Shown one piece after another: positions 10,192 to 37,826 of a DNA stretch of 64,000 nt. A model generated the notes under the pieces. It worked only from the letters and a program-made list of their open reading frames with translations, did not search any database and was not told the origin of the DNA. The position numbers and the translations under genes were made by a program. Numbering within the stretch: position 1 is the stretch's first letter; each line of letters begins with the position of its first letter. Source of the stretch: a virus. Lineage: Duplodnaviria; Caudoviricetes. The stretch is taken from positions 3,965 to 67,964 of the IMG/VR virus record IMGVR_UViG_3300032004_000003; one strand, written 5' to 3'.

Positions 10192-10796
10192 TTCTTGTCG
10201 CTATCCTGCTCGCCGAGCTTGTCGGCGTCCTCAGGCTTGGTCTTGATCTCCTCCTCGGTCGCCGCCACCGGGGCCGTGGTCTCGCCGCCGCCACCGATCG
10301 CCCGCGGCGCGGTCGGCGCCCCCGGGTTGCTGCCGTCGCCGGTCAGCCGGGCGCGCTCCTGGGCCGCCTCCTTGCTGTAGAAGGCGGGGTTGCGGCTGGC
10401 CGGGGTGCGGTCGACGTCCTCGCTGCGGCTGCCCGGGATGCGGCCGCCCTGCCGTGGCTGCAGCTCGATCGGCTTGCCCAGCGGCCCGAACGGCGCGCTG
10501 ACCGGCGCGTCGGCGGCCGTGCCTTCCGGGATCGGGCTGTTGGTGTCGCTGGCCGCCGCCGGCGGCTTGGCGCCCTTGCCGGGCTCGCGCGTCGCCTGCG
10601 GGCCGCCTTCGGGCTCGTCACGGACCACCTGCCGCTGCCCGCCGGTGCGGGCGGTGGCCTGCGCCGTGTCGGCGTCCTTGGGCGAGACGGTCGGCGCCTT
10701 GGTGCTCGACTGCGGCGGCGTGGGCGCTGCAGCGCCCGTGCCGGCTGGCGACGGCGGGGTGATGGTCGGCTCGTCCTTGGACGGGGTGCTAGCCAT
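10188..10796 (-). CDS. Pro/Ala/Thr/Ser-rich low-complexity protein (possible head decoration)
   Basis: 202-aa low-complexity ORF just downstream of the capsid gene, translationally coupled. Confidence 0.6.
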   Translation of the reverse strand: MASTPSKDEPTITPPSPAGTGAAAPTPPQSSTKAPTVSPKDADTAQATARTGGQRQVVRDEPEGGPQATREPGKGAKPPAAASDTNSPIPEGTAADAPVSAPFGPLGKPIELQPRQGGRIPGSRSEDVDRTPASRNPAFYSKEAAQERARLTGDGSNPGAPTAPRAIGGGGETTAPVAATEEEIKTKPEDADKLGEQDSDKK

Positions 10797-11061
10797 GCTC
10801 TGGCTCCTTGGCGATAGGGGTGCCCAAACGGATGGCGCGCTGGGCCTGGTCCTTGGGCGGCTCGCGGGTCAGCGTCCGCTCGTGCTCGATCTCGGCCTCG
10901 TGCCGCCGACCGCGTTCCTGCAGATCGCCGGTCGCGCCACGGCTCTCGCCAACGCGCTTCCAGCCCTTGGCCTGCCAGCTGGCGAGGTTGATGGCGTACT
11001 CGTGCACATCGACGATCCGCTGGTCGCGGCCCTTCTTCAGAGTGACGGTCGGCGTGCGCAT
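10789..11061 (-). CDS. Small capsid-associated hypothetical protein (90 aa)
   Basis: ATG overlaps the capsid stop codon. Confidence 0.6.
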   Translation of the reverse strand: MRTPTVTLKKGRDQRIVDVHEYAINLASWQAKGWKRVGESRGATGDLQERGRRHEAEIEHERTLTREPPKDQAQRAIRLGTPIAKEPEHG

Positions 11062-14085: not shown

Positions 14086-14310
14086 CTACGGCTTGGCGTC
14101 CTTCGCGTCATCCGGCGCCACCAGCCGTTCACCCTCGACCCGATAGGTGCCGTTGGGCCAGTCCTTGGCAGGACGGCCGAAGAACGGCTCGTCGGGATCG
14201 ACCGGGCCGACCTGGTCGACCATGACGCCGTCGCGGCGCGGCGGATCCTCGGCGAAGGCCGCCAGCCGCCGGCCGTCGGACAGGGTCGAGAGGTAGAGAA
14301 CAACCGTCAT
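14086..14310 (-). CDS. Small hypothetical protein (74 aa), candidate immunity protein for the MuF C-terminal domain
   Basis: ATG overlaps the stop of the MuF gene. Confidence 0.55.
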   Translation of the reverse strand: MTVVLYLSTLSDGRRLAAFAEDPPRRDGVMVDQVGPVDPDEPFFGRPAKDWPNGTYRVEGERLVAPDDAKDAKP

Positions 14311-17126
14311 GCCAGGCGATCCAGGTCTGCATCCTGCAGGATGTCGGAAACCGCGCTGATGGTACGCGCGAAGCGCCGTTGCATCCAGTGGCGGTCGTAC
14401 TGATAGGCCCAACGGCCGACCGGGCTGCGAAAGGTCGAGTACAGCTCGGCGAAGACCTCGAGCGGGTTCAGCAGCCAATACTTGCTGCGCTCCAGGAACG
14501 CCGCGCGCTCCTGCTCGGGCAGCGCCAACGCCTCTTCGGCCATCAGCTCGTGCAGGCGCATGCCGTCGACCCGGTGCTGGAACGACCGGTACGACTGCCC
14601 GAGCCGGGCGCCCAAGGCGTCGTCGAGGGCATGGCCGAACTCGTGCGCCTGGACGTTCAAGGGCGAGCTGAGCTTCGGCTGCAGGATGATCTCACGCAGG
14701 TTCGAATCGTGATGGCCGGCGGCCTGCTTGCCCGCCGACGGGCCGGACGTGAAGGTGAACGGCGTCCCGACCTCGTTCTTGCTCAGCGGCTTGTGCACCT
14801 GCACCGCCCACAGATCCTTTTCCGGCACGACGTCGCGGTACCAGGTCGCGATGACCTCGGCGGTCTTCTTGCCGTCCGGATCGCGCTTGAGCTTGTCCTC
14901 GATCGTGATCCGGCCGACGTAGGTGTCGCGCAGGTCGGACGGCGGACCACCCCAGGCGACACCGCCGCCGGCAGCCGCGGCCGTCCCGCCGGTCTTGGCC
15001 AGCGCCGCAAACCCCTTCCACAGGTCGCCGTTGCCGAGCGCTCGTGCCTCGGCCAAACGGCCGAGCGCCGCGGCCATGGTCTGCTTGTCCGCACCCAGCC
15101 GCATCGCCTCCATGGCGCGCTCGGCCGGCAGCAGCTCGACGCCGTCGACGCCGAGGCTGGCATCCCACGGCGCGCCGCCGGTGCGCCGGGCGAGGTAGAT
15201 CCGGCGCCAGGTCGTGCCGTCGATCACGTCGCCAGCGATGCCCTCGATCTTCACGGCGAGGCCGAGCTGGTCGTAGGCCGCGCGGATCGCCTCGCGCTGC
15301 AGGAGGACCGGCGTCGCCGCCTCGGTCCGCCCGTAGAAGGTCGAGGCCGGCTGCAGGTGGCCGCCGTCCTGGTCGAGGTGGGCGCGCACCATCCAGACCC
15401 GGCCGTCATCCTCGACCACGAGCACGCCGGCGCTCTGGTCAAGGCCGAGGGTCGGGATCCGCTCGCCGGCGATCCGCTTCGTGCCGGTGACCTTGTCCCA
15501 ATCCTCGGGCCGTTCGGCCGGCGCGAGCTTGGGTCCTTTCGGCGGGCTGATGTCGGTGGCGCCGCCGGGCCGGAACACGACGTGGCCGTTCGGATCCTTC
15601 AGCTTCGGGTGCGTCCGCGCGGCTTCCTTGAGCACCCGCTCCTTGAGCAGCGACCGGGCCGGGCCGGCGGCCTGCTCGGCCTCGAACACGGCGCGCGCGG
15701 CGCCGATCGCGTCGGCGAAGGCGGCCTTGACCGCGTCGGGCAGGTTGCTGAGCGAGATGTCGTCGGGCATCGGCCGGCCGCTGCGCGCCTCGCGCACCAC
15801 GCGGTTCAGCAGGCCGCGCACCGGCCCGCCCATGCCGGCGGCCGTGATCGCCTCGCGCGCGGCGCTCTCGGCCGTGTTCAGCGCGCTCCGGCGCTTCTCG
15901 GCCTGCTGCACCGCGGCTTCCCAGCCCTTGATCTCGGCTTCCTTGAGCGCCGCCGTGCTGCCCTTGGTGACCAGCTCCTCGAGCTGCTCGATGCTCAGCT
16001 CGTTGCCGGTCTGGTCGATCAGGTCGGCCATCTTGATCTTGCCGGCCGACCACAGCCGGTGCTTGGCCGCGGTGAGCACGCCGTTCCTGACCGCCCAGCC
16101 CGGCTCCTGCGCTTCCTTCAGCGTCAACCAGGAATCAAAATCCAAGGTGCTGGGCACGGCGCCGTCGAGCGAGCTTCGGGCGTTGGCCTTGGCGTCCGCG
16201 ATCTTCGCCGCCGACCAGCCGCGCGCCTGCAGCCGCTTGGTGAAGAGCTCCTCGAACGGCACCTCCTGCTTGCCGCGCTCGGGCGGCAGCGCCTTTGGCC
16301 CGGCCAGCTCGTCCCAGCTCTTGAGGACGGACACCCACGTGCTGCGGCAGTTCCAATGGTACGGAATGCCGGACTGGAACGGCTTGTCGTGGCCAACGGG
16401 CTCGCCATCCAACGTGTACAGCAAGCCATCCCTGGCCTTGCAGATTTCGCTCGTCCTGGTGTCGAGCGTCGAATGGTGCTGGATGTACTTGATGATGTCG
16501 CTGTTTTGCCGATAGCTCGCCAGCCGGGCGTCGCTGGCCACCTGCTGGATGCTGGTGCGAACGAGCGCTTCGGCTTGATGGCGCGGCCCGACGAACGCGC
16601 CCGGCGTGTCCTTGCTGCCCAGCAGCCGCTGGGTGATCTTGTCGACGCCCTCGCCGCTGAGATAGCCGTTGGTGATCTCGCGCCGCAGCACGCCCTTGTA
16701 GCTCTCGCCCTGCGCCGACCACCACTCCTTGACCCGCCGGCCCTCGATCAGCGCGTCGTCGGCGACGGCGGCCAGCTGGTGCTCGCTGAGCGCCGTGGTG
16801 GCGACGGGCACGCCAATCGCCTGGTCGAGGCTGGCGCGCGCGAAGCTGCTCTCGACCCCGGCCAGCTTGGCGAGGTCGCGAACGTGCTGCGCGGCGATGC
16901 CCTGGTAGCGCTCGTCGACCGTGCCGGCGAGCTGCGCCAGCAACGCCTTGGCGCGCTGCTGCTGAAACGCGGTCTGCCCGCCCTTGCGCAGCTTGGCCGC
17001 CACCTCGGTCGCCAGATCGTCGAGCTGGTCGATAACCTTAGCGACCTGGTCGGCTGATAGCCGCTGCAGATCGACCGCGTGCTGGATGGCGGCGTCCGCC
17101 AGCTGGTCGTTGACGCTGTCCGCCAC
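14307..17126 (-). CDS. Minor head protein (MuF / SPP1 gp7 family) with long C-terminal extension (Nudix-like and HExxH zincin-like domains)
   Basis: HHSTLDTRTSEIC...PYHWNCRS MuF motif; SAGVLVVEDDGRVWMV Nudix-like strand; QAHEFGH...EVFAE. Confidence 0.85.
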   Translation of the reverse strand: MADSVNDQLADAAIQHAVDLQRLSADQVAKVIDQLDDLATEVAAKLRKGGQTAFQQQRAKALLAQLAGTVDERYQGIAAQHVRDLAKLAGVESSFARASLDQAIGVPVATTALSEHQLAAVADDALIEGRRVKEWWSAQGESYKGVLRREITNGYLSGEGVDKITQRLLGSKDTPGAFVGPRHQAEALVRTSIQQVASDARLASYRQNSDIIKYIQHHSTLDTRTSEICKARDGLLYTLDGEPVGHDKPFQSGIPYHWNCRSTWVSVLKSWDELAGPKALPPERGKQEVPFEELFTKRLQARGWSAAKIADAKANARSSLDGAVPSTLDFDSWLTLKEAQEPGWAVRNGVLTAAKHRLWSAGKIKMADLIDQTGNELSIEQLEELVTKGSTAALKEAEIKGWEAAVQQAEKRRSALNTAESAAREAITAAGMGGPVRGLLNRVVREARSGRPMPDDISLSNLPDAVKAAFADAIGAARAVFEAEQAAGPARSLLKERVLKEAARTHPKLKDPNGHVVFRPGGATDISPPKGPKLAPAERPEDWDKVTGTKRIAGERIPTLGLDQSAGVLVVEDDGRVWMVRAHLDQDGGHLQPASTFYGRTEAATPVLLQREAIRAAYDQLGLAVKIEGIAGDVIDGTTWRRIYLARRTGGAPWDASLGVDGVELLPAERAMEAMRLGADKQTMAAALGRLAEARALGNGDLWKGFAALAKTGGTAAAAGGGVAWGGPPSDLRDTYVGRITIEDKLKRDPDGKKTAEVIATWYRDVVPEKDLWAVQVHKPLSKNEVGTPFTFTSGPSAGKQAAGHHDSNLREIILQPKLSSPLNVQAHEFGHALDDALGARLGQSYRSFQHRVDGMRLHELMAEEALALPEQERAAFLERSKYWLLNPLEVFAELYSTFRSPVGRWAYQYDRHWMQRRFARTISAVSDILQDADLDRLA

Positions 17127-17142: not shown

Positions 17143-18639
17143 TCAGGCGGCTTTGACGGCGACGGGCTTGGTGCCGGCCGGGACCGCCACCGGCGGCACC
17201 GCTGCCTGCCCCGGCCGCTGCCCAGGCACCGCCGCCGCCAGCATCGGCGGCATGGCCTTGGCGGTCTCGCTGTCGAGCTGGTCGCGCACGTCCTCGTCGC
17301 TCAGGTGGTCGGGGATCAGCTCGCCGCGCCGCAGGTTGTGCATCAGCACCTCCCACGAGAAGGCGCCGGCGTTCCAGGCGGCGACCATCTGCGCCAGATC
17401 CTGGCCGGTGAGGCCGGCATCGAAGAAGTCGGTGTTGAGCTGGACGTCGGCGTCGAGCGCGGCGGCGTCCTCGCCGGCCCCGGCCCACCACAAGGCGGTG
17501 CGCAGCGCCTTGGTCAGGGCAAAGCTGGAGGTGTTGGCGATGGCCGCCAGGATCGAGGTCTCGCCGGTCTGCCGCAGGCGCACGGTCTCGGCGGCCTCGG
17601 CATCCTTCTTCTGGCTTTCCAGGATCCTGCCGCCGGCGGCGGCCATGCGGCTTTCCAGGTGCTCGACCTGGGTCGAGAGCGAGCCGATGCCGGCGCCGCT
17701 GACCTCGAGCATCCCGGCCTTGCCCTGGCTGGTCAGCAGCCACGCCGTGCCTGAGCCGATGCGCCACTCGCGCGGCGCCGGGTCGGCGGCGCTGTGATCG
17801 TCGGCAACCCAGGGGGTTGGCAGGGCGACCATGTGCAAGGCGTGAGCCAGATCCGCCGAGCAGCGATAATGGGCGAGGTTAAGGTTGCAGACGTCGAGCA
17901 GCGGCGGCTTCTGCGGCTGCGGATCAAGGGAGAACGGGCCGCAGGTGACGAACGGGATGAAGTCGAGCGCGCGGCCGCGCCGTGCCGGCACGTAAGCGTC
18001 GACCCGGTTCCATTCGTCGCCGTCGCCTTGCTGCTTGTGGTCGCTCGGCTGCCACAGCTCGACGCCGTAGACGCCGTCCTTCAGCTGCAGGACCCGGAGC
18101 TGCCGCAGGGCGTGATCGCCGTAGCCGTCCTCTTCCGGGACGGTGACCTCGTCCTCAAGGATCAGCTGCTGCAGGAAGGGCAGGCCCGCGGCGTCGATGC
18201 CCACCGACCAGTTGCGGATGTGCTCGGCGGGGTACAAGCGAATGTACGGCCGGCCGTTCTCGCCCTGGGCCAGGTCGGTGATGATCCCGGCGCGGCCGGT
18301 GGCCAGCACCTCCTGCACCAGGTCGCGCGCCACGACATCGGCCGGGGTGCCGTCGAGGGTCAGGTTGTCGGCCCAATCCTCGTAGGCTGCAGGCAGATTG
18401 ACCGTCGGCGGCTTGCGGAAGATCAGCCCGGTCAAGCCGGCGCGGGTGCGCGCGACCGCGGCCTCGAACGGGGCGCGGGCCAAGAAGCTGCGGAAGTCGC
18501 GCCAGTCCTGGCCGCTGGGGCGGGGAAGGTAGGTCTCGCCCTTGGCCTTGATCGCCTCCTCGCCCTCAAGGGCGTCGCGGATCTTGGCCCAGACCTCGGC
18601 GCGATCCGCGTAGCAGCGATGGGTGTTGGTCACGGGCAT
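17143..18639 (-). CDS. Portal protein (DUF4055 family)
   Basis: YLPRPSG...FLARAPF...IFRKPP; KPPLLDVCNLNLAHYRCSAD...ALPTPW; LNTDFFD. Confidence 0.9.
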   Translation of the reverse strand: MPVTNTHRCYADRAEVWAKIRDALEGEEAIKAKGETYLPRPSGQDWRDFRSFLARAPFEAAVARTRAGLTGLIFRKPPTVNLPAAYEDWADNLTLDGTPADVVARDLVQEVLATGRAGIITDLAQGENGRPYIRLYPAEHIRNWSVGIDAAGLPFLQQLILEDEVTVPEEDGYGDHALRQLRVLQLKDGVYGVELWQPSDHKQQGDGDEWNRVDAYVPARRGRALDFIPFVTCGPFSLDPQPQKPPLLDVCNLNLAHYRCSADLAHALHMVALPTPWVADDHSAADPAPREWRIGSGTAWLLTSQGKAGMLEVSGAGIGSLSTQVEHLESRMAAAGGRILESQKKDAEAAETVRLRQTGETSILAAIANTSSFALTKALRTALWWAGAGEDAAALDADVQLNTDFFDAGLTGQDLAQMVAAWNAGAFSWEVLMHNLRRGELIPDHLSDEDVRDQLDSETAKAMPPMLAAAVPGQRPGQAAVPPVAVPAGTKPVAVKAA

Positions 18640-18749
18640 GGGCGCGTCCAAGGCGAAAGGATCGCACCTGGATAGAGCCGGGACGCGATTCAATCAAGCC
18701 GGGGGTCCATCCACGCCGCGTGGGGGGGCCAAGTCGAGCGCGCGGCGGC

Positions 18750-19652
18750 GCCTTGCCTTGCCTCGCCGTGCCTCGCCGGCCATGCCACGCCTCGCCCGGC
18801 CACGCCTCGCCCGGCCACGCCGCGCCAAGCCCGGCCTTACCGCGCCTCGCCGGCCGCGCCGAGCCATGCCCCGCCTTGCCGTGCCGAGCCGCGCCCAGCC
18901 TTGCCGAGCCCTGCCGGCCGCGCCCAGCCCCGACCCGCCACACCTTGCCGCACCGCGCCTTGCCATGCCGGACGCACCCTGCCTTGCCAGAACCAACCTG
19001 GCCCTGCCTTGCCACGCCGGCCACGCCCCGCCGCACCTCGCCGTGCCGTGCCTCACCGTGCCCTGCCCCGCCGCGCCGTACCCTACCGGCCGCACCCCGC
19101 CGCGCCGCGCCAGACCCCGCCATGCCTTGCCGCGCCTCGCCAGCCCGGCCCCGCCTAGCCCTGCCGGGCCCGGCCTAGCCCAGCCCCGCCGTGCCAAGCC
19201 CCGCCGGCCCTGCCATGCCGAGCCTTGCCACGCCCCGCCTTGCCGGCCGCACCCTGCCGTGCCATGCCACACCGCGCCGCGCCTCGCCACGCCGTGCCGC
19301 GCCCCGCCCTGCCGGCCACGCCAGACCGCGCCTTGCCCAACCGGATCACGCCGAGCCACGCCTCGCCGGCCGCGCCACGCCACACCGCACCTCGCCGCAA
19401 CCAGCCAGGCCATGCCGGTCCAGCCACGCCTTGCCAGGCCTCACCGCGCCATGCCGTGCCCGACCTCACCCCGCCTCGCCGGCCATGCCGTGCCGCGCCA
19501 TGCCCGACCTCGCCACGCCCTGCCAGCCACGCCGCGCCTAGCCAAGCCTGGCCAAGCCACGCCACGCCACGCCACGCCGGCCCTGCCAAACCCGACCTGG
19601 ACACGCCTTGCCGCGCCTGGCCATGCCATACCCGCGCCAGCCACACCACGCC
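18750..19652 (-). ncRNA. GGY-NN pentamer array (903 bp); predicted guide-like non-coding RNA array of 16 units
   Basis: Hand parse: 184 triplets (177 GGC/GGT) separated by 166 variable dinucleotides, one trinucleotide and 16 single-base hinges; counts sum to exactly 903 bp; starts 7 nt after the stop of 19660..20202. Confidence 0.85.
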
Positions 19653-19659
19653 TGTAGGA

Positions 19660-20202
19660 TCAGGCCTCGACCAGCTCGGGCGCCGGCTCCTCGAGCAGCG
19701 CATCGATCGCCATCATCACCTCGCCCAGGCCAACCAGCACCCGGTACCGCGCCCGGAACAGCCGCAGCTCGCGCAGCGCCTCGCGCAGCAACGCCGACTG
19801 GTGGCTCGGCTCCTGCATCGCCACCAGCGTCTCGCGGTAGCCGCGCACCTCGTCCCGCGGCTTGAAGCTGGCGTACACCGCCACCGGCTCGGAGCGCTCC
19901 TCGCGCCCGTCCTCGTGCCGGCGGATCACCACCACCCGCACCCCGCGCTGCAGGGTCTCCGCCTGCACCTCGCGCCAGCGCTCGGCCGCCACCGCGTCCT
20001 GCCAGGTGAAGGCACCATGCAGCTTGGCCTCCTCAGGCCGCGCCGCGTTCACCACCGCCCGCGGATCGAGCACCGGCGCGTTGCCCTGGATGCGCCGCAG
20101 CTCGCCCGCCACCATGGCGGCGCTCTCCTTGGTCCGCGGGAATCCTTTCTCGAGGGCGTAGGTCGAGGACCACTCGTAGCCGAGGTGGACGTCACGCGGC
20201 AT
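19660..20202 (-). CDS. Conserved phage protein (180 aa) between the RAMP-like gene and the array
   Basis: LDPRAVVNAARPEEAKLHGAFTWQDAVAAERWREVQA; start overlaps the upstream stop. Confidence 0.8.
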   Translation of the reverse strand: MPRDVHLGYEWSSTYALEKGFPRTKESAAMVAGELRRIQGNAPVLDPRAVVNAARPEEAKLHGAFTWQDAVAAERWREVQAETLQRGVRVVVIRRHEDGREERSEPVAVYASFKPRDEVRGYRETLVAMQEPSHQSALLREALRELRLFRARYRVLVGLGEVMMAIDALLEEPAPELVEA

Positions 20203-20896
20203 CCGCAAGGCGGCTCTCCTGCTCGATGTCGGCAACGATGCTCATCTCGGCCGCGGAGGCAGCGTGAAACCGGCCGTAGGTGCCATCCCGCTCAGCACGC
20301 CACTCGCCGATGCCGACCCCGAACCCGGCCGTGTTGATCAGGTTCATGATCTGCCCTTCCGACAACACGCCCTCGTTGTAGCTAACGTTGAGCCGCGCCG
20401 CCCACGGCCAGAACTGGCCCCGGTAGCGGAGATCCGCGGTGCCCATGCCGACGCGCACCATGTCCTCGCGCATCTCCGGCTCGCCGGCGATGATCCGCAC
20501 CAAATCGTAGCGCGCCTCCATGCGCCGGCCGTTGTGCTCGTAGGCGGACGGGATGCTGATCTGCTCGCCGACGATATGGAACGCCTGGCGGGCGGCGATC
20601 TTGGTCATGTCGGCCACGGACGTGCAGGCGGTCACCGCCGCCGCCTTGAACGCGACGCTGGGGAAGCCGTAGCCGCCGCCCGGCAGGCGGTAGAGGCTGT
20701 CCTGGAAATCCTGCCAGGGGTCCTTGGCCTCCTTCGCGCCCTTGGCGACCTTCATTTGCTTGCCGAGCATCTCGAGCTTGGCCTTCTGCGACCAGGCGTG
20801 AACGATCAACGGGCTGGCGCCGAGGACGGCCACCTCCATGGTTCTGATGCGCAGTTCCGGAACGACAACGGACGTGGTAGCGGCTTTGACGGCCAT
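20192..20896 (-). CDS. RAMP/Cas7-like RRM-fold protein (234 aa), putative guide-RNA-binding effector
   Basis: AGGAG RBS; N-terminal VLGASPLIVH, central YGFPSVAFKAA and C-terminal Gly-rich loop GFGVGIGEWRAERDGTYGRF match the three RAMP (Csm3/Cmr/Cas7-group) motifs in order. Confidence 0.75.
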   Translation of the reverse strand: MAVKAATTSVVVPELRIRTMEVAVLGASPLIVHAWSQKAKLEMLGKQMKVAKGAKEAKDPWQDFQDSLYRLPGGGYGFPSVAFKAAAVTACTSVADMTKIAARQAFHIVGEQISIPSAYEHNGRRMEARYDLVRIIAGEPEMREDMVRVGMGTADLRYRGQFWPWAARLNVSYNEGVLSEGQIMNLINTAGFGVGIGEWRAERDGTYGRFHAASAAEMSIVADIEQESRLADAA

Positions 20897-20970
20897 GCGG
20901 CGAGGCTCCTTCTCGCTTAGCGTGGGGGCGGCGCGTGTGGTGCCAGCACGCGCGTCGCCCATCCATGATC

Positions 20971-21026
20971 TGGTCAGATTGTGGCTGACCAAGACTATCG
21001 CTTAGCAGCCCACCGGTTGGCGTCAA
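20971..21026 (-). promoter_or_regulatory. Sigma70-like promoter and palindromic operator candidate for the RAMP cassette
   Basis: Minus strand TTGACG (21026-21021) then GCTAAG/TAAGCG -10 region about 16 nt downstream; inverted repeat TGGTCAG-N7-CTGACCA at 20971-20991. Confidence 0.55.
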
Positions 21027-21082
21027 TAGCAGATGAGGACAGGCGGGTCCGAGCCGGGATCGGGCGCGTCGTCGCTCATGAC

Positions 21083-22010
21083 GCCGCGCCGCCTGCCGGC
21101 CCTCCAGGGCCGCTCACCGCGGCGGCTCCTCTTCCAGCCGCGGGTCCCACTTCTTTTTCTCGATCGCCTCGGCCAGGACCTCGGCCGGATCCCTGCCTTT
21201 GGTGACAACCTGCCAATGCAGCGAGGACACCGCCATCCCGACCCGTTTCGCCCAGGCGTTCATGCTCATGGTCTCGCCGCGGAAGGTGATCTTCGACCGC
21301 GTCAGCTCCCGAGCAGGCTCGGTCAGCGCCCGCTCCACGGGCCAGCCCAGCTTGTCGAGCCGGTGGAGAAGCAACGGCACCGAGATGCCGATACGTTCCG
21401 CCCAGTGGGTGAGAACCAGGGTCTGGCCACGGAAGGTGAGCAGCCGGTTGTTGCGCTTGTTGGTCGCCTGCTCGTGCATCGGGATCCAGACGCAGTTGCC
21501 GGGCTCGTAGTGGCCGTTCACGTCGAGCCGCTCGATGCTGTAACGACCCTTCTTCGGCCGCTCGCCCATGTCGGCGAGGAAGTTCGCGAAGCTCTTGCGC
21601 CACCGCTCGCAGACCTCGATCCCGCGACCGCCGTAATCGGCATAGTACTTGTTGTTGGGATTGGTGCAGCGGTCGATCATGCCCCGCAAGGTGAGGTATT
21701 CTGGCGTTGTCTCTCCTCGCTTGCTGGCCCCATGCTTGGTGTTTCGGGCCATTCGTTGATCCCGGTCCAGGCAACCACAGCTTTTCGTGTGGCCCGAGCG
21801 GAGCGCGCCGGCCCAGACGATCACCTCCTCGCCGCAGTCGCACCGGCAACTCCACGTGACCTTGGTCTCGCCCCCGGTTTGCGCGGTGCCGGCACGGTTG
21901 AGCACCGTGAGCCGACCGAACCGCTGGCCGGTGAGATCGATGAATGCGGGCATGGCGGCTCCTCATCGGTCACGGCCGCGCCGCCCCCTGCCGGCCCTCC
22001 AGCGTGCTCA
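21083..22010. repeat. Imperfect direct repeats (21083-21116 and 21975-22010) flanking the HNH gene
   Basis: Exact shared blocks gccgcgccgcc and cctgccggccctccag. Confidence 0.7.
21114..21953 (-). CDS. HNH homing endonuclease-like protein
   Basis: DLTGQRFGRLTV; WSCRCDCG; LRSGHTKSCGC; YGGRGIEVCERW; SIERLDVNGHYEPGNCVW. Confidence 0.9.
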   Translation of the reverse strand: MPAFIDLTGQRFGRLTVLNRAGTAQTGGETKVTWSCRCDCGEEVIVWAGALRSGHTKSCGCLDRDQRMARNTKHGASKRGETTPEYLTLRGMIDRCTNPNNKYYADYGGRGIEVCERWRKSFANFLADMGERPKKGRYSIERLDVNGHYEPGNCVWIPMHEQATNKRNNRLLTFRGQTLVLTHWAERIGISVPLLLHRLDKLGWPVERALTEPARELTRSKITFRGETMSMNAWAKRVGMAVSSLHWQVVTKGRDPAEVLAEAIEKKKWDPRLEEEPPR

Positions 22011-22269
22011 GCCGTTGCAGCGCCTCGTCCAGCTGCCCCTGCAGCCGGTCCCGCTCGGCCTGCTCCCGCGCCTGCTCCTGGCCGCGCTGCAGCAGCTTGA
22101 GATCCCCGCAGCTGTTCATCTGCACCAGGACCAGCACCCAGACCACGAAGGTCAGCAGGCCCGTCCAGCCGAAATGGTAGCGCTGGTTGTCCTTGAGCAG
22201 CTTGAGCCGGTGGTGGAGGTAGGACAGCTTGCCCTCGGGTCCGTAGCTGTCGAAGGGGTCGTCGCTCAC
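21970..22269 (-). CDS. Single-TM coiled-coil hypothetical protein
   Basis: FGWTGLLTFVVWVLVLVQM hydrophobic segment followed by a coiled coil. Confidence 0.65.
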   Translation of the reverse strand: MSDDPFDSYGPEGKLSYLHHRLKLLKDNQRYHFGWTGLLTFVVWVLVLVQMNSCGDLKLLQRGQEQAREQAERDRLQGQLDEALQRLSTLEGRQGAARP

Positions 22270-22838
22270 GGCGCGACCTCGCTGCCGGCGTAGATCTCGT
22301 CCAGCGGCACGAGCGCCTCCAGCGTCGGGCTGGCGAACGCGTCGCCGGCATGGTCGGTGCCGTGCCAGACGCCGGCGGCGTCGCGCCGCCAGACCTGCAC
22401 CCAGCGCTGCTTGGTCTCGACCAGCCAGATCTCGCCCACGCTCGGCAGCGCCTTGTATTCCGGCACCTTCTCCAGCAGATCCGTGTCGCGGTTGCCGGGC
22501 GACAGCACCTCGACCAGCAGCAGCGGGTCGGCGGTGGTCGGCCCCGGCGGCTGGCAGGTCACCGCGACGTCGGGCTCACGCCAGCGCCCGCTCGCCACCG
22601 TCACGCTGCCGGGCGCCTCGGGCCGGCACGGGCGCCGCCCCTGGGGCGGTCCCCCGCCCCGAGCCAGCGCGTTGCCGATCAGCCGCGCGGCGTTGGCCGC
22701 GATCGTGCGGTGCGGCCCGCCGGGCGGGTTCATCGCCACCGGCTGGCCGTCGACCAGCTCGTAGCGCGTGCCGGTGCGGTCGTCCCAGGCCAGGAACTCG
22801 TCCACCGTCATCCCGCGCGGCGCCGACCGGGCGCTCAC
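22266..22838 (-). CDS. Uma2 family (PD-(D/E)xK-like) endonuclease
   Basis: MTVDEFLAW; RYELVDG..VAMNPP; REPDVAV; LLVEVLSPG; EKVPEYKALPSV.EIWLV. Confidence 0.9.
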   Translation of the reverse strand: MSARSAPRGMTVDEFLAWDDRTGTRYELVDGQPVAMNPPGGPHRTIAANAARLIGNALARGGGPPQGRRPCRPEAPGSVTVASGRWREPDVAVTCQPPGPTTADPLLLVEVLSPGNRDTDLLEKVPEYKALPSVGEIWLVETKQRWVQVWRRDAAGVWHGTDHAGDAFASPTLEALVPLDEIYAGSEVAP

Positions 22839-23209
22839 GGCTCTTGCTCCCGCCGCCGCTCCATCTCGTCCAGCCGCTGCTCGACCTTGCGCAGGCGCTG
22901 CTCCAGCTCGCGCAGATGGCCGTCCAGCTGCAGCACCCGGGTGCCGCGCTCGATCTGGCCGATCTCCAGCCGCGTCAGATCGTTCTCCAGCCGGCCAAGC
23001 CGCCGCTCGATCCCGTGGAGCCGGTCCAGAAGCGGCGGGACCGTCAGCCCCGCCATCGGTCCTGCGAGCGCGGTCCCCAGCTCCGGCAGCGGCCTCTCGT
23101 TGATCGCCTGCAGCTCGGCCCGCATCTCGCGCAGCATCGCGAGGCACTCATCCTGGAGGGCATGGATCTGCGCGATCTGCTCCGCCGCCTTGTCCCAGTC
23201 CGCCGCCAT
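22835..23209 (-). CDS. Coiled-coil hypothetical protein
   Basis: Heptad Leu repeats; coupled overlap. Confidence 0.6.
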   Translation of the reverse strand: MAADWDKAAEQIAQIHALQDECLAMLREMRAELQAINERPLPELGTALAGPMAGLTVPPLLDRLHGIERRLGRLENDLTRLEIGQIERGTRVLQLDGHLRELEQRLRKVEQRLDEMERRREQEP

Positions 23210-23275
23210 GCCCTGCCCTCCCCTGGACACGGCATCGTAGCGCGGTGCGGGGGCCGGTGCGCGCAATCCGTGCGA

Positions 23276-23889
23276 GCGCGCACCATGGGGCGGCGGCGCG
23301 CCCCGCTAGCAGCTGGCGAGCAGGCAAGCGCTTCGGTAGAAATTGGCGCGCTACCTCTCACTGCGGAGATGAACATGACCGAGAAGAAATGGTCGCCCTG
23401 GCCGCTGATCAGCTTCGGGCTGCTCGCGCGGTCGCCGGTGATGTGTCGCAAGCTTCTGGCCACGGCGGCGCTCGCCTCGAGCCTGGGCGCGTGCGCCTCG
23501 GTGCCTAGCCCGCTCGCCCCGCTGGATCACGAGCTGGCCCGCATGACGCGGCAGCCCGACGATCCGGCCCGGGACACGTGGCAGACAGCGGGCCAGATGG
23601 CGTCGACCCGGGTCGGCGACTGCGAGGACTTCGCCGCCTACTCGTTCGCCTGGCTCCAGGCCCGTGGCTTCCATCCCACGCTCGCGATCGGCACCCGCAG
23701 CGGGGGTGGCCTGCACGCCTGGGTCGAGGTCGAGATCGACGGCCAGACCTGGTTCGCCGATCTCGACCGGGTGACCCAGCAGCGGCCGACATGGGACCCC
23801 TTGGGGCCGGTGGCGGTGGAGCTGGTGCGGCTGGCCAAGGGTGGCCCGGCGTGGCCGGAGGAACGCGCCGGCGCGCACCATGGGGCGGC
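23276..23889. repeat. Exact 19-bp direct repeat flanking the BTLCP gene
   Basis: GCGCGCACCATGGGGCGGC at 23276-23294 and 23871-23889. Confidence 0.8.
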
Positions 23890-23899
23890 CGGCGCCTAG
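23369..23899 (+). CDS. Transglutaminase-like cysteine peptidase (BTLCP) lipoprotein
   Basis: Lipobox SLGAC; WQTA...GDCEDFA catalytic Cys motif; HAWVEV; GGAG RBS. Confidence 0.8.
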   Translation: MNMTEKKWSPWPLISFGLLARSPVMCRKLLATAALASSLGACASVPSPLAPLDHELARMTRQPDDPARDTWQTAGQMASTRVGDCEDFAAYSFAWLQARGFHPTLAIGTRSGGGLHAWVEVEIDGQTWFADLDRVTQQRPTWDPLGPVAVELVRLAKGGPAWPEERAGAHHGAAGA

Positions 23900-24369
23900 C
23901 GCGGCCCAGGCGCGCCGACCCGGGCGCTGGTGCGGTCACCCGCACCTTGGTCACCCCCGACCCGCACCATCCCGTGCGGCAGCGCGACCCCCTGCTCGCC
24001 GTCGGCCAGCCGGCGCGCGGCGTGCAAGGCCAGGATGATGTCCTCCGGGTCGTAGGGCTTGGCCATGGCCAGGCCCGGCGCGGCGCTCGGGTCGTGGAGC
24101 ACGGTCGAGACCCACGCCGTGCAATAGACCACGGCGCAGTCCTGGGCGCCTAGCGCGCGCGCGACCACGCGGCCGTCGCCTGGCGCCAGCTTGACATCCA
24201 CCAGCGCGTGGGTCGGATGGGTGAGCGCGGCCAGGACCAAAGCGCCGTGCTCGCTGCCGGCGACGCCGACCACCTCCAGCCCGGCCTCCTCAAGAACCTG
24301 CTGCGCCAAGATCGCGATCACCACCTCGTCCTCGACCACGAGAACCCGAGCCGCCCTGGGGGCGGTCAC
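23896..24369 (-). CDS. Single-domain response regulator (CheY-like receiver)
   Basis: VLVVEDEVVIA; ALVDVKL (phospho-acceptor Asp); VVYCTA; AKPY. Confidence 0.85.
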   Translation of the reverse strand: MTAPRAARVLVVEDEVVIAILAQQVLEEAGLEVVGVAGSEHGALVLAALTHPTHALVDVKLAPGDGRVVARALGAQDCAVVYCTAWVSTVLHDPSAAPGLAMAKPYDPEDIILALHAARRLADGEQGVALPHGMVRVGGDQGAGDRTSARVGAPGPR

Positions 24370-24626
24370 GGGTCGAGGCGGCGCACCGCCTCCTCCAGAA
24401 GCTGGAGCTGGCGGTACCCCTGGGCGTTGCGCTCGTCAGACAGGGTCAGATTGCGGGTGCCCTGCACGTTGCGCTCCACCAGCTGCTCTTCCATCGCCCC
24501 CAGCCGCAGGTAGGTCTGCCGCAGCAGCACGCAGGCCGTCACCAGCGCGATCACCATCGCGATGCTCGCCGCGGCGTTCAACACCTCCAGCTTGGTCAAG
24601 GTCGCGATCAAGGTCCTTTCGGGCAT
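24366..24626 (-). CDS. Small membrane protein
   Basis: AASIAMVIALVTACVLL TM segment. Confidence 0.55.
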   Translation of the reverse strand: MPERTLIATLTKLEVLNAAASIAMVIALVTACVLLRQTYLRLGAMEEQLVERNVQGTRNLTLSDERNAQGYRQLQLLEEAVRRLDP

Positions 24627-24748
24627 CGCCCTTCCTCCTGGCGTGCCACTGGCGCCGCAGGAGCAAAAGCGCGCCTGAAACCCAGCACAACGCCGACAAC
24701 CAGCCGAAGGCCAACACCACCCAGAACAGCACGGGCGGCTCGGACAGC

Positions 24749-26077
24749 TCAGTAGACCCCATGCAAACGGGTTGGGCCGCGCGGGCCAGAACCGACGATC
24801 GAAAATCTCCTGGTTACATAATAGCCCAAGGCGTCCGAAAGATGAGTCAGGCGTGGGTCGGCTTTCTTGTCAATCTCGCCGTCGCTGCCCGCGATGACGC
24901 GCACGCCCTCGAGGTCGCGCACCGTCCAGGGCGCCTTCGTCGGGTCGACCATCAGCCGAACCTCGCCCAGGGCGTTCTTGAGCCGGGCGTTGACGCTGTT
25001 GATCCGCACCCGCTCGGGCGGGTTGGCGGGCGGGATGTCGAGCGCCAGGCGGTCCTTGAAGTGGGCGCCGAGCAGCCGCCGGACGATGTCCCAGTCGCTG
25101 CCGGCGACCTTCGCCGAGCCCGCCGCGCCGCCGGTGGCATCGCCGTAGCACACCACGCGGCCGACGTGATGGCCCCAGTCGGCCAGGATCTTGCGGCAGA
25201 CCCTTTCCGTGTTGCTCGAGCGCTCGATGTGCACCTCGCCGATCACGCCGGTGCCGTCGTGGCCGCTGGGCAGCCGCAGCTCCTGCGCGATCACGGCCGT
25301 GCCTGGATCGACGTTGAAGTCGAGGCACAGGATCAGCGGCGCGCGCGGGTCATGCGACAGCCGGGCGCAGTGGGTCCGTTCCTCGAACGGGTAGTAGATC
25401 CGGCCGGCGAACGACAGGAACGACGCCTCGAACTCCTGCTGGAACGTCAGCTCGTCCATGTCGCGCCGCGCCGCCTCGATCTCGCCTGGCGACAGGATAT
25501 CGGCCGACACCCAGTGGAAGCCGGCCCATTCGCCCGACTCGTCGGCCAGCGCGTACCTAAATAGATCATAGTAATGGTTGCGTCCCTCCGGTGTGCCGAT
25601 CATCCAGCACCAACCGCCGCGGTCGGCCAGCGCCGGGCGGATGTTGGCGGTCCAGGCGGTGGCGCGCATGTTGCCGTATTCGTCCAGGCAGCCGCCGTTC
25701 CAGGACCGGCCCTCGATCCGTTCCGGCTTGTCCATGCCGACGACCCAGATCTCGGCGCCGTTGACCAGGCGGATCATCAGCTCGCTCTCGCGCGGGGTCT
25801 CGGCGAGCGCCCAGGGCGGGATCAAGCGCTTCAGATCCTGCCAATAGATCTGCTTGGCCTGATCGCGGGTCGGGGCGGCGGCGAAGAACCGAGCATCGGG
25901 CCAGCGGTCCTCGAGCAGGGCTTGCCTTACCAGGTTCCTCTTGGCGCGCTCGGTCTTGCCGCTGCGGCGCCCGGCCGGCACGACCCGGAACCGCGCCTTG
26001 CTGGTCACCAGCTTGTGCTGGATCGGGTGCGGCCGCAGCTGGTACCAGCGCGGGGTCAGCGCCTCCTGCAGGTTCAT
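24749..26077 (-). CDS. terL: Terminase large subunit
   Basis: Walker A VPAGRRSGKT; Walker B GCLDEY; IGTPEGRNHYY; nuclease LDFNVDP; YGDATG; HLSDALGY. Confidence 0.95.
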   Translation of the reverse strand: MNLQEALTPRWYQLRPHPIQHKLVTSKARFRVVPAGRRSGKTERAKRNLVRQALLEDRWPDARFFAAAPTRDQAKQIYWQDLKRLIPPWALAETPRESELMIRLVNGAEIWVVGMDKPERIEGRSWNGGCLDEYGNMRATAWTANIRPALADRGGWCWMIGTPEGRNHYYDLFRYALADESGEWAGFHWVSADILSPGEIEAARRDMDELTFQQEFEASFLSFAGRIYYPFEERTHCARLSHDPRAPLILCLDFNVDPGTAVIAQELRLPSGHDGTGVIGEVHIERSSNTERVCRKILADWGHHVGRVVCYGDATGGAAGSAKVAGSDWDIVRRLLGAHFKDRLALDIPPANPPERVRINSVNARLKNALGEVRLMVDPTKAPWTVRDLEGVRVIAGSDGEIDKKADPRLTHLSDALGYYVTRRFSIVGSGPRGPTRLHGVY

Positions 26078-36840: not shown

Positions 36841-37184
36841 GCGGCCGGACCGCCGCCAACCCGCGCCGTTGCTGGCTTTTCGCGGCCTGCCTGCAGGGAA
36901 CTATCCAGCGGCTTTTGCCCTGTGTTAGGAGGGATGACGAGGGATCGGCTTCGAGGTGCGGCGCGCGGGCGGCGTCGCGGACGGACGGCAGGGCAGGCCG
37001 GCGAGGCGGAGGAGGGGCGACGATGGCTATGGCGGCGGCGCATGCTTGGCGTGACCTGGAGTGCTCGCCGGTCGACACACCATCAGGACCGGCGGATGTC
37101 AACCGCGCTAGGCGACCGGCTCCTGGCGCGGACGCCAAGGAGGCGGCTGCGGCCGGCACCGGGGCGCCGGCGCTGACCGAGCGC

Positions 37185-37826
37185 ATGCTGGCCGAGGAGC
37201 GGCTGTGGGACGTCCTGCGGCGGCGGATCGTCGAGATCGCCGAGAAGCGGCGGGTGACCTTGCGCGACGTCGCGGTGCGCGCCGGGCTGCCCGAGGGCGC
37301 GGTTCGCGACGTCGTGGTGGGCCGGTCGCTGAACCCGCGGATCAGCACGCTGATGCTGATCGCCGAAAGCCTGAACGTCTCGCCGGCGGCGCTGTTGCCC
37401 GACAAGGCCGCGACCGCGGGCGGCGACGTCGAGGTGTTCCACGTGCGGCTGCTCGAGCCCGGCGGCAAGGCGGCGGCGGGGGACGCGCCGGCGAGGAGCG
37501 CGGTGATCGCGCTGCCGCCGCAGCTGGCGCCGGCGGCGCGCGCCGGGCGGCTGCTGGCCTGGCAGGTGACCGGGGAGCCGCAGGTGGCGGCGCTGCAGCG
37601 CGGCGACCTTGTCGTGGCCGACACCGCGCAGACCGGCGGCACGGACCGGGCGCCCTACCTGTGCGAGCTGGCGCACGAGCTGCGGGTGGTGCGGGTCAGC
37701 ACGACGCTGCGGCCGGGCGAGCGGCGGCTGAGCGTGGATGACGGCGACGAGCCGGTGACCGTGCCCGTCGACGCGGTGCGGATCCTGGGCCGCATCGTCT
37801 ACCTGGCGCGGCTCCAGATCGCCTAG
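37185..37826 (+). CDS. CI-like repressor: XRE HTH plus degenerate S24-like C-terminal domain (start uncertain)
   Basis: TLRDVAVRAGLPEGAVRDV..GRSLNPRISTLMLIAESLNVS; LQRGDLVVAD; ILGRIVY. Confidence 0.75.
   Translation: MLAEERLWDVLRRRIVEIAEKRRVTLRDVAVRAGLPEGAVRDVVVGRSLNPRISTLMLIAESLNVSPAALLPDKAATAGGDVEVFHVRLLEPGGKAAAGDAPARSAVIALPPQLAPAARAGRLLAWQVTGEPQVAALQRGDLVVADTAQTGGTDRAPYLCELAHELRVVRVSTTLRPGERRLSVDDGDEPVTVPVDAVRILGRIVYLARLQIA

What the first reader, a model, noticed from the sequence alone, without database searches (positions are those of the whole stretch)
18750..19652. NN slots read like codon positions 1-2: possible wobble-skipping target code
Seen in sequence (minus strand): unit 4 = GA GG GA CG AC AT GC GA CT AA GT TG; unit 5 = AT CT TG GC GA GC GT GT GC; unit 7 = AG GG GC AC GT GA GC GC GT AT AC AG GC; unit 10 = GA GC AA AT GG CT GC GC GG GC; unit 13 = AT AA GC GC AA GT GG GG TG GC. 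The first base of the slot is a purine in 127 of 166 slots (G78, A49, C19, T20), and every unit starts with a purine. Inference: if targets are matched as NNx NNx with every third base skipped, the strings give plausible peptides (for example E-G-E-R-T-I-A-E-L-K-V-W and E-A-K-M-G-L-A-A-G-A), and recognition would be immune to synonymous escape. The purine bias could instead be a structural constraint of the array. I found no self-target in this window by eye, but that search was not exhaustive.
Basis: inference. Interest (0 to 1): 0.8.

Follow-up and report, generated by a model that had tools for sequence, protein, structure and literature searches.

The report
Phage VIPR guide-RNA array (GGY-NN repeats)

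Summary
On the minus strand, 19652-18750 holds about 185 pentamers GGY-NN. Sixteen single-base "hinges" (GGY-N-GGY) cut them into 16 units of 7-14 slots.

Directly upstream, same strand, lie a 234-aa protein and a 180-aa partner.
- The 234-aa protein has a Cas7/Csm3-type RAMP fold. A family profile hits only one solved protein, the SUSP1 Vipr protein (E = 2.9e-9), and the residues that read GGY there are conserved.
- The 180-aa partner recurs next to this protein in relatives.
- Of 90 related loci, 80 carry a same-strand GGY-NN array next to the gene.

This is therefore a VIPR locus (bioRxiv 10.64898/2026.04.26.720920 and .720927). The published rule is that NN pairs with the target, one base is skipped, and that base is usually the codon wobble.

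I reproduced the rule on this clade. Guides from related loci hit other related phages only under the 1-nt-skip model, mostly in frame and in sense.

No target was found for this window's own 16 units. Their slot composition fits codon positions 1-2 best.

Verdict: a new member of a known kind, with the published tail-less "staggered" array layout.

The parts
20192..20896 (-). vipr gene: 234-aa RAMP (Cas7-like) protein, P0001. The longer TTG-started ORF runs to 20992.
   Evidence: AF2 model pLDDT 89.3, pTM 0.84. The top Foldseek PDB hits are Cas7-type RAMPs (Csm3 8do6_E, E = 2e-5). VIA-align gives Z about 10 over residues 14-216. The family profile A1 hits only SUSP1 Vipr, 36pp_D, E = 2.9e-9. 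5690 homologues at E <= 1e-3, none with a Pfam domain among the 120 listed, all named ones 'hypothetical'. phrog_4652, unknown function.
19660..20202 (-). vap-like accessory gene: 180 aa. Its start overlaps the vipr stop and its stop lies 7 nt before the first GGY.
   Evidence: phrog_15946, unknown function. No Pfam, NCBIfam or PDB sequence hit. Homologous ORFs (136 phmmer hits at E <= 1e-3) lie next to vipr in the related loci: before the array in Alphaproteobacteria, after it in Firmicutes. AF2 pLDDT 90.8. Only weak matches, Z <= 5.3, mostly winged-helix domains.
18750..19652 (-). vrRNA array: about 185 GGY-NN pentamers in 16 units separated by GGY-N-GGY hinges (staggered, tail-less layout).
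   Evidence: No Rfam family, so no hammerhead spacers. Stops occur in five of the six frames.
19579..19652 (-). unit 1 (14 slots; the most degenerate triplets)
19525..19578 (-). unit 2 (10 slots; T hinge)
19481..19524 (-). unit 3 (8 slots)
19417..19480 (-). unit 4 (12 slots)
   Evidence: An IMG/VR seed scan found no extendable hit.
19368..19416 (-). unit 5 (9 slots)
19314..19367 (-). unit 6 (10 slots)
19245..19313 (-). unit 7 (13 slots)
   Evidence: 0 hits in IMG/VR with a 10-slot seed. 0 hits in 401 Alphaproteobacteria genomes at <= 3 mismatches.
19206..19244 (-). unit 8 (7 slots)
19142..19205 (-). unit 9 (12 slots; T hinge)
   Evidence: IMG/VR seed scan negative.
19088..19141 (-). unit 10 (10 slots)
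19019..19087 (-). unit 11 (13 slots)
   Evidence: The seed gave 79 IMG/VR hits, most in near-identical copies of one 121-141-aa ORF, with no extension: judged chance.
18970..19018 (-). unit 12 (9 slots). The only unit with a recognisable counterpart (14 of 18 bases) in the closest relative, L119.
18916..18969 (-). unit 13 (10 slots)
18852..18915 (-). unit 14 (12 slots)
   Evidence: IMG/VR seed scan negative.
18778..18851 (-). unit 15 (14 slots; contains an internal 15-nt duplication)
18743..18777 (-). unit 16 (7 slots; decays into the flank)
17143..18639 (-). context: portal gene (DUF4055, phrog_145), directly downstream of the array
24749..26077 (-). context: terminase large subunit, upstream. 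The VIPR cassette sits inside the packaging/head module.
   Evidence: In relative L032 the array is followed by an ORF that I read by eye as a terminase large subunit, in L012 by an ORF that I read as ParB-like; neither was scanned.

Best explanation
This is a complete phage-borne VIPR (Viral Interference Programmable Repeat) locus: vipr (234-aa minimal Cas7-like RAMP), a vap-like accessory gene, and a 16-unit array of guide RNAs (vrRNAs), all on the minus strand between the terminase and portal genes.

Inferred from the published homologous system: the array is transcribed with or after vipr-vap and cut at the single-base hinges into guides of 7-14 pentamers. One Vipr protomer binds each GGY and flips it out, leaving the NN dinucleotides exposed. 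The filament then pairs with double-stranded DNA in the register NN-x-NN-x. Because x usually falls on the codon wobble, synonymous changes in the target do not prevent recognition. Binding silences transcription of the target, most likely genes of competing phages, prophages or satellites in the same host.

Shown here: the array anatomy, the RAMP fold and profile homology to SUSP1 Vipr, the gene-array linkage across 80 of 90 related loci, the absence of self-targets, and the 1-nt-skip, in-frame rule for guides of related loci.

Inferred only: expression, processing at the hinges, and the actual targets of these 16 units.
For: (1) Array anatomy matches the vrRNA definition of alternating GGY/NN, 9-16 repeats (paper). 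Family-wide unit length peaks at 9-10 slots.

(2) Protein. The top-listed Foldseek and VIA matches are Cas7-family RAMPs. Profile A1 against all PDB sequences returns only SUSP1 Vipr, E = 2.9e-9. SUSP1 R138, D177, W178 and R179 align to invariant R159, E198, W199 and R200. H17 aligns tentatively to invariant H33 (residue roles).

(3) Linkage. 80 of 90 loci found with this protein, in viral contigs and in genomes of several phyla, carry a GGY-NN array on the gene's strand next to it. Only one has a run on the opposite strand.

(4) Rule reproduced. 611 unique guides were scanned against 2.5 Mb of related loci. The 1-nt skip gives 6 hits with <= 1 mismatch (2 perfect) and 24 with <= 2. Skip 0, skip 2, reversed, base-swapped and shuffled controls give 0-2 and 9-14. 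Among hits in GC-rich DNA, 13 of 20 put the skipped base on the wobble position (11 in sense), against 5 of 25 for controls; Fisher p = 0.0027. Targets include a conserved vipr motif of another phage, a DPPY-containing peptide that I read as a methylase motif, and a ParB-like motif.

(5) Window slots fit a 'sense codon positions 1-2' model built from 40 window ORFs better than any other phase or the genome background: logL -460.8 against -474.1, -486.7, and -514 to -567. Slot GC is 0.59/0.51 in a 0.71-GC window.

(6) No self-target above shuffles, as published.
Against: No natural target was found for any of the 16 window units. The searches were:
- 1.25 Mb of related loci;
- exact IMG/VR seed scans for units 4, 7, 9, 11 and 14;
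- 401 Alphaproteobacteria genomes for unit 7.

Slot composition departs from pure codon usage. C-first slots are 12% against 29% expected, and GT and AA are enriched.

There is no tail or pseudoknot between units, unlike the experimentally studied type II systems. The paper says the hammerhead and single-vrRNA layouts were confirmed by sRNA-seq and does not say so for the staggered layout.

No sigma-70-like promoter or intrinsic terminator was found by the simple scan.

The VIPR literature is preprints from one group.
Confidence: 0.9

Rival explanations
1. A VIPR array that is mostly decayed or serves as a decoy or sponge rather than as working guides. For example, it could titrate a rival phage's Vipr, as published for satellite-borne solo vrRNAs.
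For: Several units have degenerate triplets (unit 1: GCG, GTC; units 5, 6 and 12: GTT, GAT). Unit 15 has an internal duplication. No targets were found. Solo vrRNAs that redirect a Vipr are described in 10.64898/2026.10.15.759431.
Against: The array sits with an intact cognate vipr-vap pair whose RNA-reading residues are invariant. 177 of 192 triplets are GGY. Guides of sister loci do have in-frame targets. The target search here was shallow.
Confidence: 0.06
2. A structural or packaging DNA element, such as a pac site, a small-terminase binding array, or a G-rich R-loop or G-quadruplex origin. Its 5-bp period would be read as DNA or as a G-rich transcript, with no guide function.
For: It lies between terminase and portal genes. 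GC skew is strong, with G on the coding strand. The 3+2 period recalls TRAP-type RNA binding (my own knowledge).
Against: The array travels with the RAMP gene, not with packaging genes. In Firmicutes, Actinobacteria and others it again follows vipr. Neighbours downstream differ: portal here, a terminase-like ORF in L032 and a ParB-like ORF in L012, the last two read by eye. NN content is almost wholly different in a relative with 89% identical Vipr. Guides match other phages' genes in the NNx register.
Confidence: 0.02
3. A protein-coding low-complexity repeat. The + strand ORF 18623-19657 is open across the whole array.
For: One of the six frames has no stop across the array.
Against: A period of 5 with -1 hinges cannot keep a reading frame. 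The arrays of 750 bp or more in six other loci (L030, L032, L034, L089, L170, L191) carry stops in all six frames; L074 (1030 bp) and the window's own array each keep one frame open. Where a frame is open, it is not a consistent one. GC-rich DNA gives long spurious ORFs.
Confidence: 0.01

Closest known systems
VIPR systems (Vipr + vap + vrRNA); type II exemplars Escherichia phage SUSP1 and the Pseudomonas fulva prophage (bioRxiv 10.64898/2026.04.26.720920, .720927, 2026.10.15.759431)
   Same: A phage-borne two-gene operon with a minimal RAMP. Guides are made of GGY-NN pentamers, about 9-16 per guide. The G-loop and thumb residues that read GGY are conserved. There is no self-targeting. In the clade, 1-nt-skip matches to genes of rival phages (including rival vipr genes) have the skip on the wobble position.
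   Different: Sequence similarity to SUSP1 Vipr is remote: single-sequence E = 0.008, profile E = 2.9e-9, confined mainly to the C-terminal third. There is no 3' tail or pseudoknot per guide. Instead 16 guides abut through single-base hinges, which is probably the paper's 'staggered' layout (fig. S18), not reported there as confirmed by sRNA-seq. The array is much longer, about 900 bp here and up to about 2.4 kb in relatives L032 and L034. The vap here has no detectable sequence family, and which of vap1-6 it is could not be determined. The VIPR type (I-VII) could not be assigned from the text.
Class 1 CRISPR-Cas backbone (Cas7/Csm3 filament on crRNA)
   Same: The same protein fold (Z about 10) and the same logic: one RAMP per fixed RNA step, with a thumb that breaks pairing periodically.
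   Different: There are no direct repeats with unique spacers. No Cas-family match was seen among the neighbouring ORFs scanned. The guide is noncontiguous, with 2 paired bases per 5 RNA bases and per 3 DNA bases. It is carried by a phage.
TRAP-type 3+2 periodic RNA sites ((G/U)AG-NN repeats wrapped on an 11-mer ring)
   Same: A conserved triplet plus a 2-nt variable spacer, with one protein subunit per 5 nt.
   Different: In TRAP sites the spacers carry no information and the protein is a closed ring regulating its own operon. Here the spacers are the informative part and the protein is a RAMP filament. This was considered only as an early lead.

Membership tests
VIPR system | Vipr protein: minimal RAMP (RRM core, glycine-rich loop, thumb) homologous to characterised Vipr | tested here: met
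   AF2 pLDDT 89. The top-listed Foldseek and VIA hits are Cas7-type RAMPs, Z about 10, 155 residues aligned, rmsd 3.8. Profile A1 against PDB sequences returns only SUSP1 Vipr, E = 2.9e-9. The G-x-G-E-W-R loop and the Y-R thumb are invariant in A1.
VIPR system | vrRNA made of alternating conserved GGY and variable NN, about 9-16 repeats per guide | tested here: met
   177 of 192 triplets are GGY. Units have 7-14 slots. NN is variable, with 16 dinucleotide types. The family-wide mode is 9-10 slots.
VIPR system | Array physically linked to vipr on the same strand, conserved across relatives | tested here: met
   80 of 90 related loci have one; one has an opposite-strand run.
VIPR system | Accessory vap gene in the operon | tested here: met
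   The 180-aa gene overlaps the vipr stop. Homologous ORFs (136 phmmer hits) lie next to vipr in the related loci. Its identity with a published vap1-6 class is not testable here. The fold gives only weak winged-helix-like matches, Z <= 5.3.
VIPR system | Targets recognised with a 1-nt skip (NNx) | tested here: inconclusive
   For the clade it is met: skip 1 beats five controls. For this window's 16 units no target was found.
VIPR system | Skipped base falls mostly on the codon wobble | tested here: met
   Clade hits: 13 of 20 at wobble against 5 of 25 in controls, p = 0.0027. Window slots fit codon positions 1-2 best, by 13 to 106 log-likelihood units over the alternatives. That second test is indirect.
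VIPR system | No self-targeting of the source contig | tested here: met
   Best matches in the window equal shuffled controls for all four gap models.
VIPR system | Guides expressed, processed and bound by Vipr; binding represses transcription | not testable with these tools
   Needs sRNA-seq, pull-down and reporter assays.
VIPR type II (SUSP1-like) architecture | Each vrRNA ends in an invariant structured 3' tail or pseudoknot | tested here: not met
   Units abut via a single base. There is no Rfam hit. The 3' flank fold is not better than shuffles, z = -1.4. This fits the 'staggered' layout of fig. S18 instead.
CRISPR-Cas | Array of identical direct repeats (about 24-48 nt) with unique spacers, plus adaptation genes | tested here: not met
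   Only a 5-nt period is present. The neighbours are phage packaging and head genes and accessory genes not typical of that module.

The most novel reading that the evidence does not exclude
This large Vipr clade, seen in Alphaproteobacteria, Firmicutes and Actinobacteria prophages and in mycobacteriophages, may work differently from the studied type II systems in two respects not described in the text I read.

(a) Guides are made from a tail-less, back-to-back array in which a single-base hinge and A-rich edge slots define the cut sites or the filament length. This allows arrays of 16 to more than 40 guides.

(b) Guides are strongly biased to the mRNA-sense orientation. In-frame hits were 11 sense against 2 antisense. 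Slot base 1 is 67% purine family-wide and 75% here. This would mean a directional way of making new guides, or selection against guides that the target's mRNA could soak up.
Probability: 0.3. Interest if true: 0.55.

Novelty: new member of a known kind. Interest (0 to 1): 0.35.

Why it matters
It shows that the scan can recover, from raw sequence alone, a recently described class of RNA-guided DNA recognition. It adds a well-defined example from a 71%-GC, probably alphaproteobacterial phage, with one of the larger arrays.

The clade is very large: 5690 homologues at E <= 1e-3. It includes cultured Mycobacterium and Gordonia phages, which would be easy experimental models.

The independent all-against-all test is outside confirmation of the 1-nt-skip, wobble-aligned rule for a VIPR clade and an array layout that the original papers did not test experimentally.

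As a discovery, however, the mechanism is already published.

Tried and rejected
- **TRAP-like, pac-site and R-loop ideas.** These were my first readings. I dropped them once the upstream protein hit SUSP1 Vipr and the array proved linked to that gene across phyla.
- **Rfam.** No family in 18000-21500.
- **Promoter and terminator scan.** Nothing found.
- **Fold of the 3' flank.** Not significant.
- **Related loci.** The 180-aa protein as a single query found no close relatives in viral contigs. The portal found none in genome or viral contigs. Portal relatives among cultured phages are at most 36% identical, the best being Dinoroseobacter phages, so the host stays unknown. Cluster look-up gave no organism names.
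- **Target search for window units.** Local scans were negative. Five IMG/VR exact-seed scans were negative. The best extension was 21/24 in a 31%-GC phage and 23/26 in a 53%-GC giant ORF, both within chance. Unit 7 at <= 3 mismatches found nothing in 5 and then 401 genomes.
- **Coding frame by longest ORF.** This misled in GC-rich DNA. I replaced it with GC1/GC2/GC3 phase.
- **Slot GC against locus GC across 109 loci.** Only a weak trend (r = 0.36-0.47), not a clean codon signature.
- **VIPR type.** Could not be read from the paper or its supplement text.

Full report
**Observation**

Read on the minus strand, 19652 to about 18750 is a near-perfect run of pentamers: a conserved triplet GGY followed by two variable bases. 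A dynamic-programming parse gives 192 triplets (GGC 152, GGT 25), 176 two-base slots and 16 one-base slots (C 14 times, T twice). The one-base slots cut the run into 16 units of 7-14 slots, so every long TRF period is 5k+4.

Slot base 1 is G79 A49 C21 T21 of 170, and all 16 units begin with a purine. Unbroken GGY runs reach 72 copies, against at most 6 in random sequence of the same composition. There is no second array in the window.

**Context**

The window is an IMG/VR virus record of 67,964 bp. All genes here are on the minus strand, in this order:
- terminase large subunit (24749-26077), followed by several accessory genes;
- a 266-aa ORF, whose real product is 234 aa (P0001, 20192-20896);
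- a 180-aa ORF overlapping its stop (19660-20202);
- the array, 7 nt later;
- portal (DUF4055, phrog_145) and a MuF-like head protein.

Both small proteins match only PHROGs of unknown function.

**What it is**

P0001 alone gave a weak hit to one solved protein, "SUSP1 Vipr protein" (36pp_D, E = 0.008). That led to three 2026 preprints on VIPR systems.

These describe a phage-borne minimal RAMP (Vipr), an accessory gene (vap), and guide RNAs made of 9-16 YNNGG repeats. The GGY is held by the protein. The NN dinucleotides pair with double-stranded DNA while one target base per step is skipped, and the skipped base mostly falls on the codon wobble. [quoted passage not shown]

**Membership tests**

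*Protein.* An AF2 model of P0001 is confident (pLDDT 89, pTM 0.84). Its top-listed structural matches are Cas7-type RAMPs: Csm3, Cmr4/6, type VII Cas7, Cas7-11 and Csc2. Foldseek E goes down to 2e-5, and VIA Z is about 10 over residues 14-216.

A profile of 36 family members searched against all PDB sequences returns only SUSP1 Vipr, at E = 2.9e-9. In that alignment the residues the cryo-EM paper assigns to GGY recognition (R138, D177, W178, R179; tentatively H17) fall on invariant R159, E198, W199, R200 and H33 of the family.

*Linkage.* The protein has 5690 homologues at E <= 1e-3. I fetched 26 viral loci and 64 genomic loci from Alphaproteobacteria, Firmicutes, Actinobacteria, Planctomycetes and others. 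Of these, 80 of 90 carry a GGY-NN array on the gene's strand next to it, and one has an opposite-strand run. Array sizes range from about 100 bp to about 2.4 kb (L032, L034).

*Accessory gene.* The 180-aa protein is a conserved partner. Its gene lies between vipr and the array in Alphaproteobacteria, and after the array in Firmicutes. Its model is confident (pLDDT 91), but the only matches are weak and mostly winged-helix domains (Z <= 5.3).

*Array layout.* There is no per-guide tail, no ribozyme and no Rfam hit. Hinges of one base are the rule in this clade: A 647, C 208, T 163, G 106. I take this to be the published staggered layout. The paper says the hammerhead and single-vrRNA layouts were confirmed by sRNA-seq and does not say so for this one.

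*Self-targets.* There are none. For each unit and each gap of 0-3, the best match in the window equals the shuffled controls. This agrees with the papers.

*The rule in this clade.* I parsed 611 unique guides of at least 9 slots from 171 loci. Each was scanned against all the loci (2.5 Mb, both strands) under gap 0, 1 and 2, and three gap-1 controls: slot order reversed, bases swapped within slots, and slots shuffled.

| Model | Hits with <= 1 mismatch | Hits with <= 2 mismatches |
|---|---|---|
| Gap 1 | 6 (2 perfect) | 24 |
| Five controls | 0-2 | 9-14 |

(a first, smaller run gave the same picture.)

The good hits lie in other phages' genes:
- an 8-slot guide of a Sphingomonas prophage matches a conserved motif of the vipr gene of a Phyllobacterium prophage, 16/16;
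- two prophages (L053, L055) target each other;
- several guides hit a DPPY-containing peptide that I read as a methylase motif, or a ParB-like motif.

Coding phase was judged by GC at the three codon positions in GC-rich regions. On that basis, 13 of 20 gap-1 hits put the skipped base on the wobble position, 11 of them in sense. Pooled controls gave 5 of 25 (Fisher p = 0.0027).

*This window's own units.* No target was found:
- in 1.25 Mb of related loci;
- in IMG/VR by exact seeds for units 7, 14, 4, 11 and 9;
- in 401 Alphaproteobacteria genomes for unit 7.

The 79 hits of the unit 11 seed are mostly near-identical copies of one 121-141-aa ORF. They do not extend, which shows how an oversampled family can mimic enrichment.

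*Indirect evidence for the window.* Against dinucleotide models built from 40 window ORFs, the 170 slots fit "sense codon positions 1-2" best.

| Model | Log-likelihood |
|---|---|
| Sense, codon positions 1-2 | -460.8 |
| Antisense, wobble skipped | -474.1 |
| Genome background | -486.7 |
| Phases that include the wobble base | -514 to -567 |

Slot GC is 0.59/0.51 in a 0.71-GC window whose third codon positions are 0.90 GC. The fit is imperfect. C-first slots are 12% against 29% expected.

Family-wide, slot base 1 is 67% purine, and the first and last slots of a unit are A-rich (48% and 47% A, against 29% inside). So the purine bias is partly codon-like and partly a constraint at unit edges. 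"Every unit starts with a purine" belongs to the second part.

**Turnover**

In L119, whose Vipr is 89% identical, only one of seven units resembles a window unit (unit 12, 14 of 18 bases). The rest are unrelated. The guide set is therefore replaced much faster than the protein changes.

**Rivals**

- *Coding repeat.* A period of 5 with -1 hinges cannot hold a frame, and the long arrays of six other loci have stops in all six frames (L074 and the window's own each keep one frame open).
- *Packaging or structural DNA.* The array follows the RAMP gene, not the packaging genes, and its NN content matches other phages' genes in the NNx register.
- *Decayed or decoy array.* This cannot be excluded for individual units, since some triplets are degenerate. 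But the cognate genes are intact.

**Novelty**

The mechanism and the wobble argument are published, so this is a new member of a known kind. Three things may go beyond the text I could read: the size and tail-less grammar of arrays in this clade, the apparent sense-strand bias of its guides, and the unidentified vap family.

**Limits**

- The host is unknown.
- The VIPR type could not be assigned.
- All mechanistic statements about this locus rest on homology to systems described in preprints.

Noticed in passing
phages collection: hits H13-H37 (e.g. NC_023580.1 at 36991-37554; MW534375.1 at 10358-10966): Homologues of this Vipr clade (about 39% identity, 86-91% coverage) occur in 27 Mycobacterium phage records (Saal, Donkeykong, Mattes and others), 5 Gordonia phages and 1 cyanophage. 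All listed ones are annotated 'hypothetical protein'. These are cultured models for this clade. I did not check their arrays.
   Followed up: no
L053:5169 onward against L055:3924-3952; L055:5174 and 5228 onward against L053:158 and 1354: Two alphaproteobacterial prophages (a MAG and Hyphobacterium vulgare) carry guides that match each other under the 1-nt-skip rule: 20/20, 18/20 and 16/16. This looks like reciprocal targeting.
   Followed up: partly
L059:5078 onward against L038:4421-4443: A guide in a Sphingomonas soli prophage matches, 16/16 and in frame, the conserved E-D-M-V-R-V-G-M motif of the vipr gene of a Phyllobacterium phragmitis prophage. Targeting of rival vipr genes is described for SUSP1-family phages.
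   Followed up: partly
L010:6874-6939, L013:6935-6976, L014:6878-6943, L037:3351-3416: A second, small GGY-NN array (8-11 pentamers) lies about 1.7 kb downstream of the main array in several related loci. Its 10-slot guide matches L011 at position 7032 onward, 19/20 and in frame with a 495-aa ORF.
   Followed up: partly
L032:2400-4860; L034:1370-3645; L074:2839-3868; L191:1476-3044: Some relatives have very long arrays (1-2.4 kb, dozens of units), far beyond the 1-4 guides of the studied type II loci.
   Followed up: partly
window 20192-24749: The VIPR cassette and several unrelated accessory genes separate the terminase from the portal. In relatives the same cassette is followed by an ORF I read by eye as terminase (L032) or as ParB-like (L012).
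   Followed up: no
window 14307-17126: The MuF-like head protein is 939 aa, but the MuF match covers only the first 390 residues or so. The C-terminal 550 aa are unexplained.
   Followed up: no
L206-L284: The 16-base seed of unit 11 hit 79 IMG/VR contigs, most of them near-identical 121-141-aa ORFs. This is a reminder that raw hit counts in IMG/VR reflect sampling depth.
   Followed up: yes
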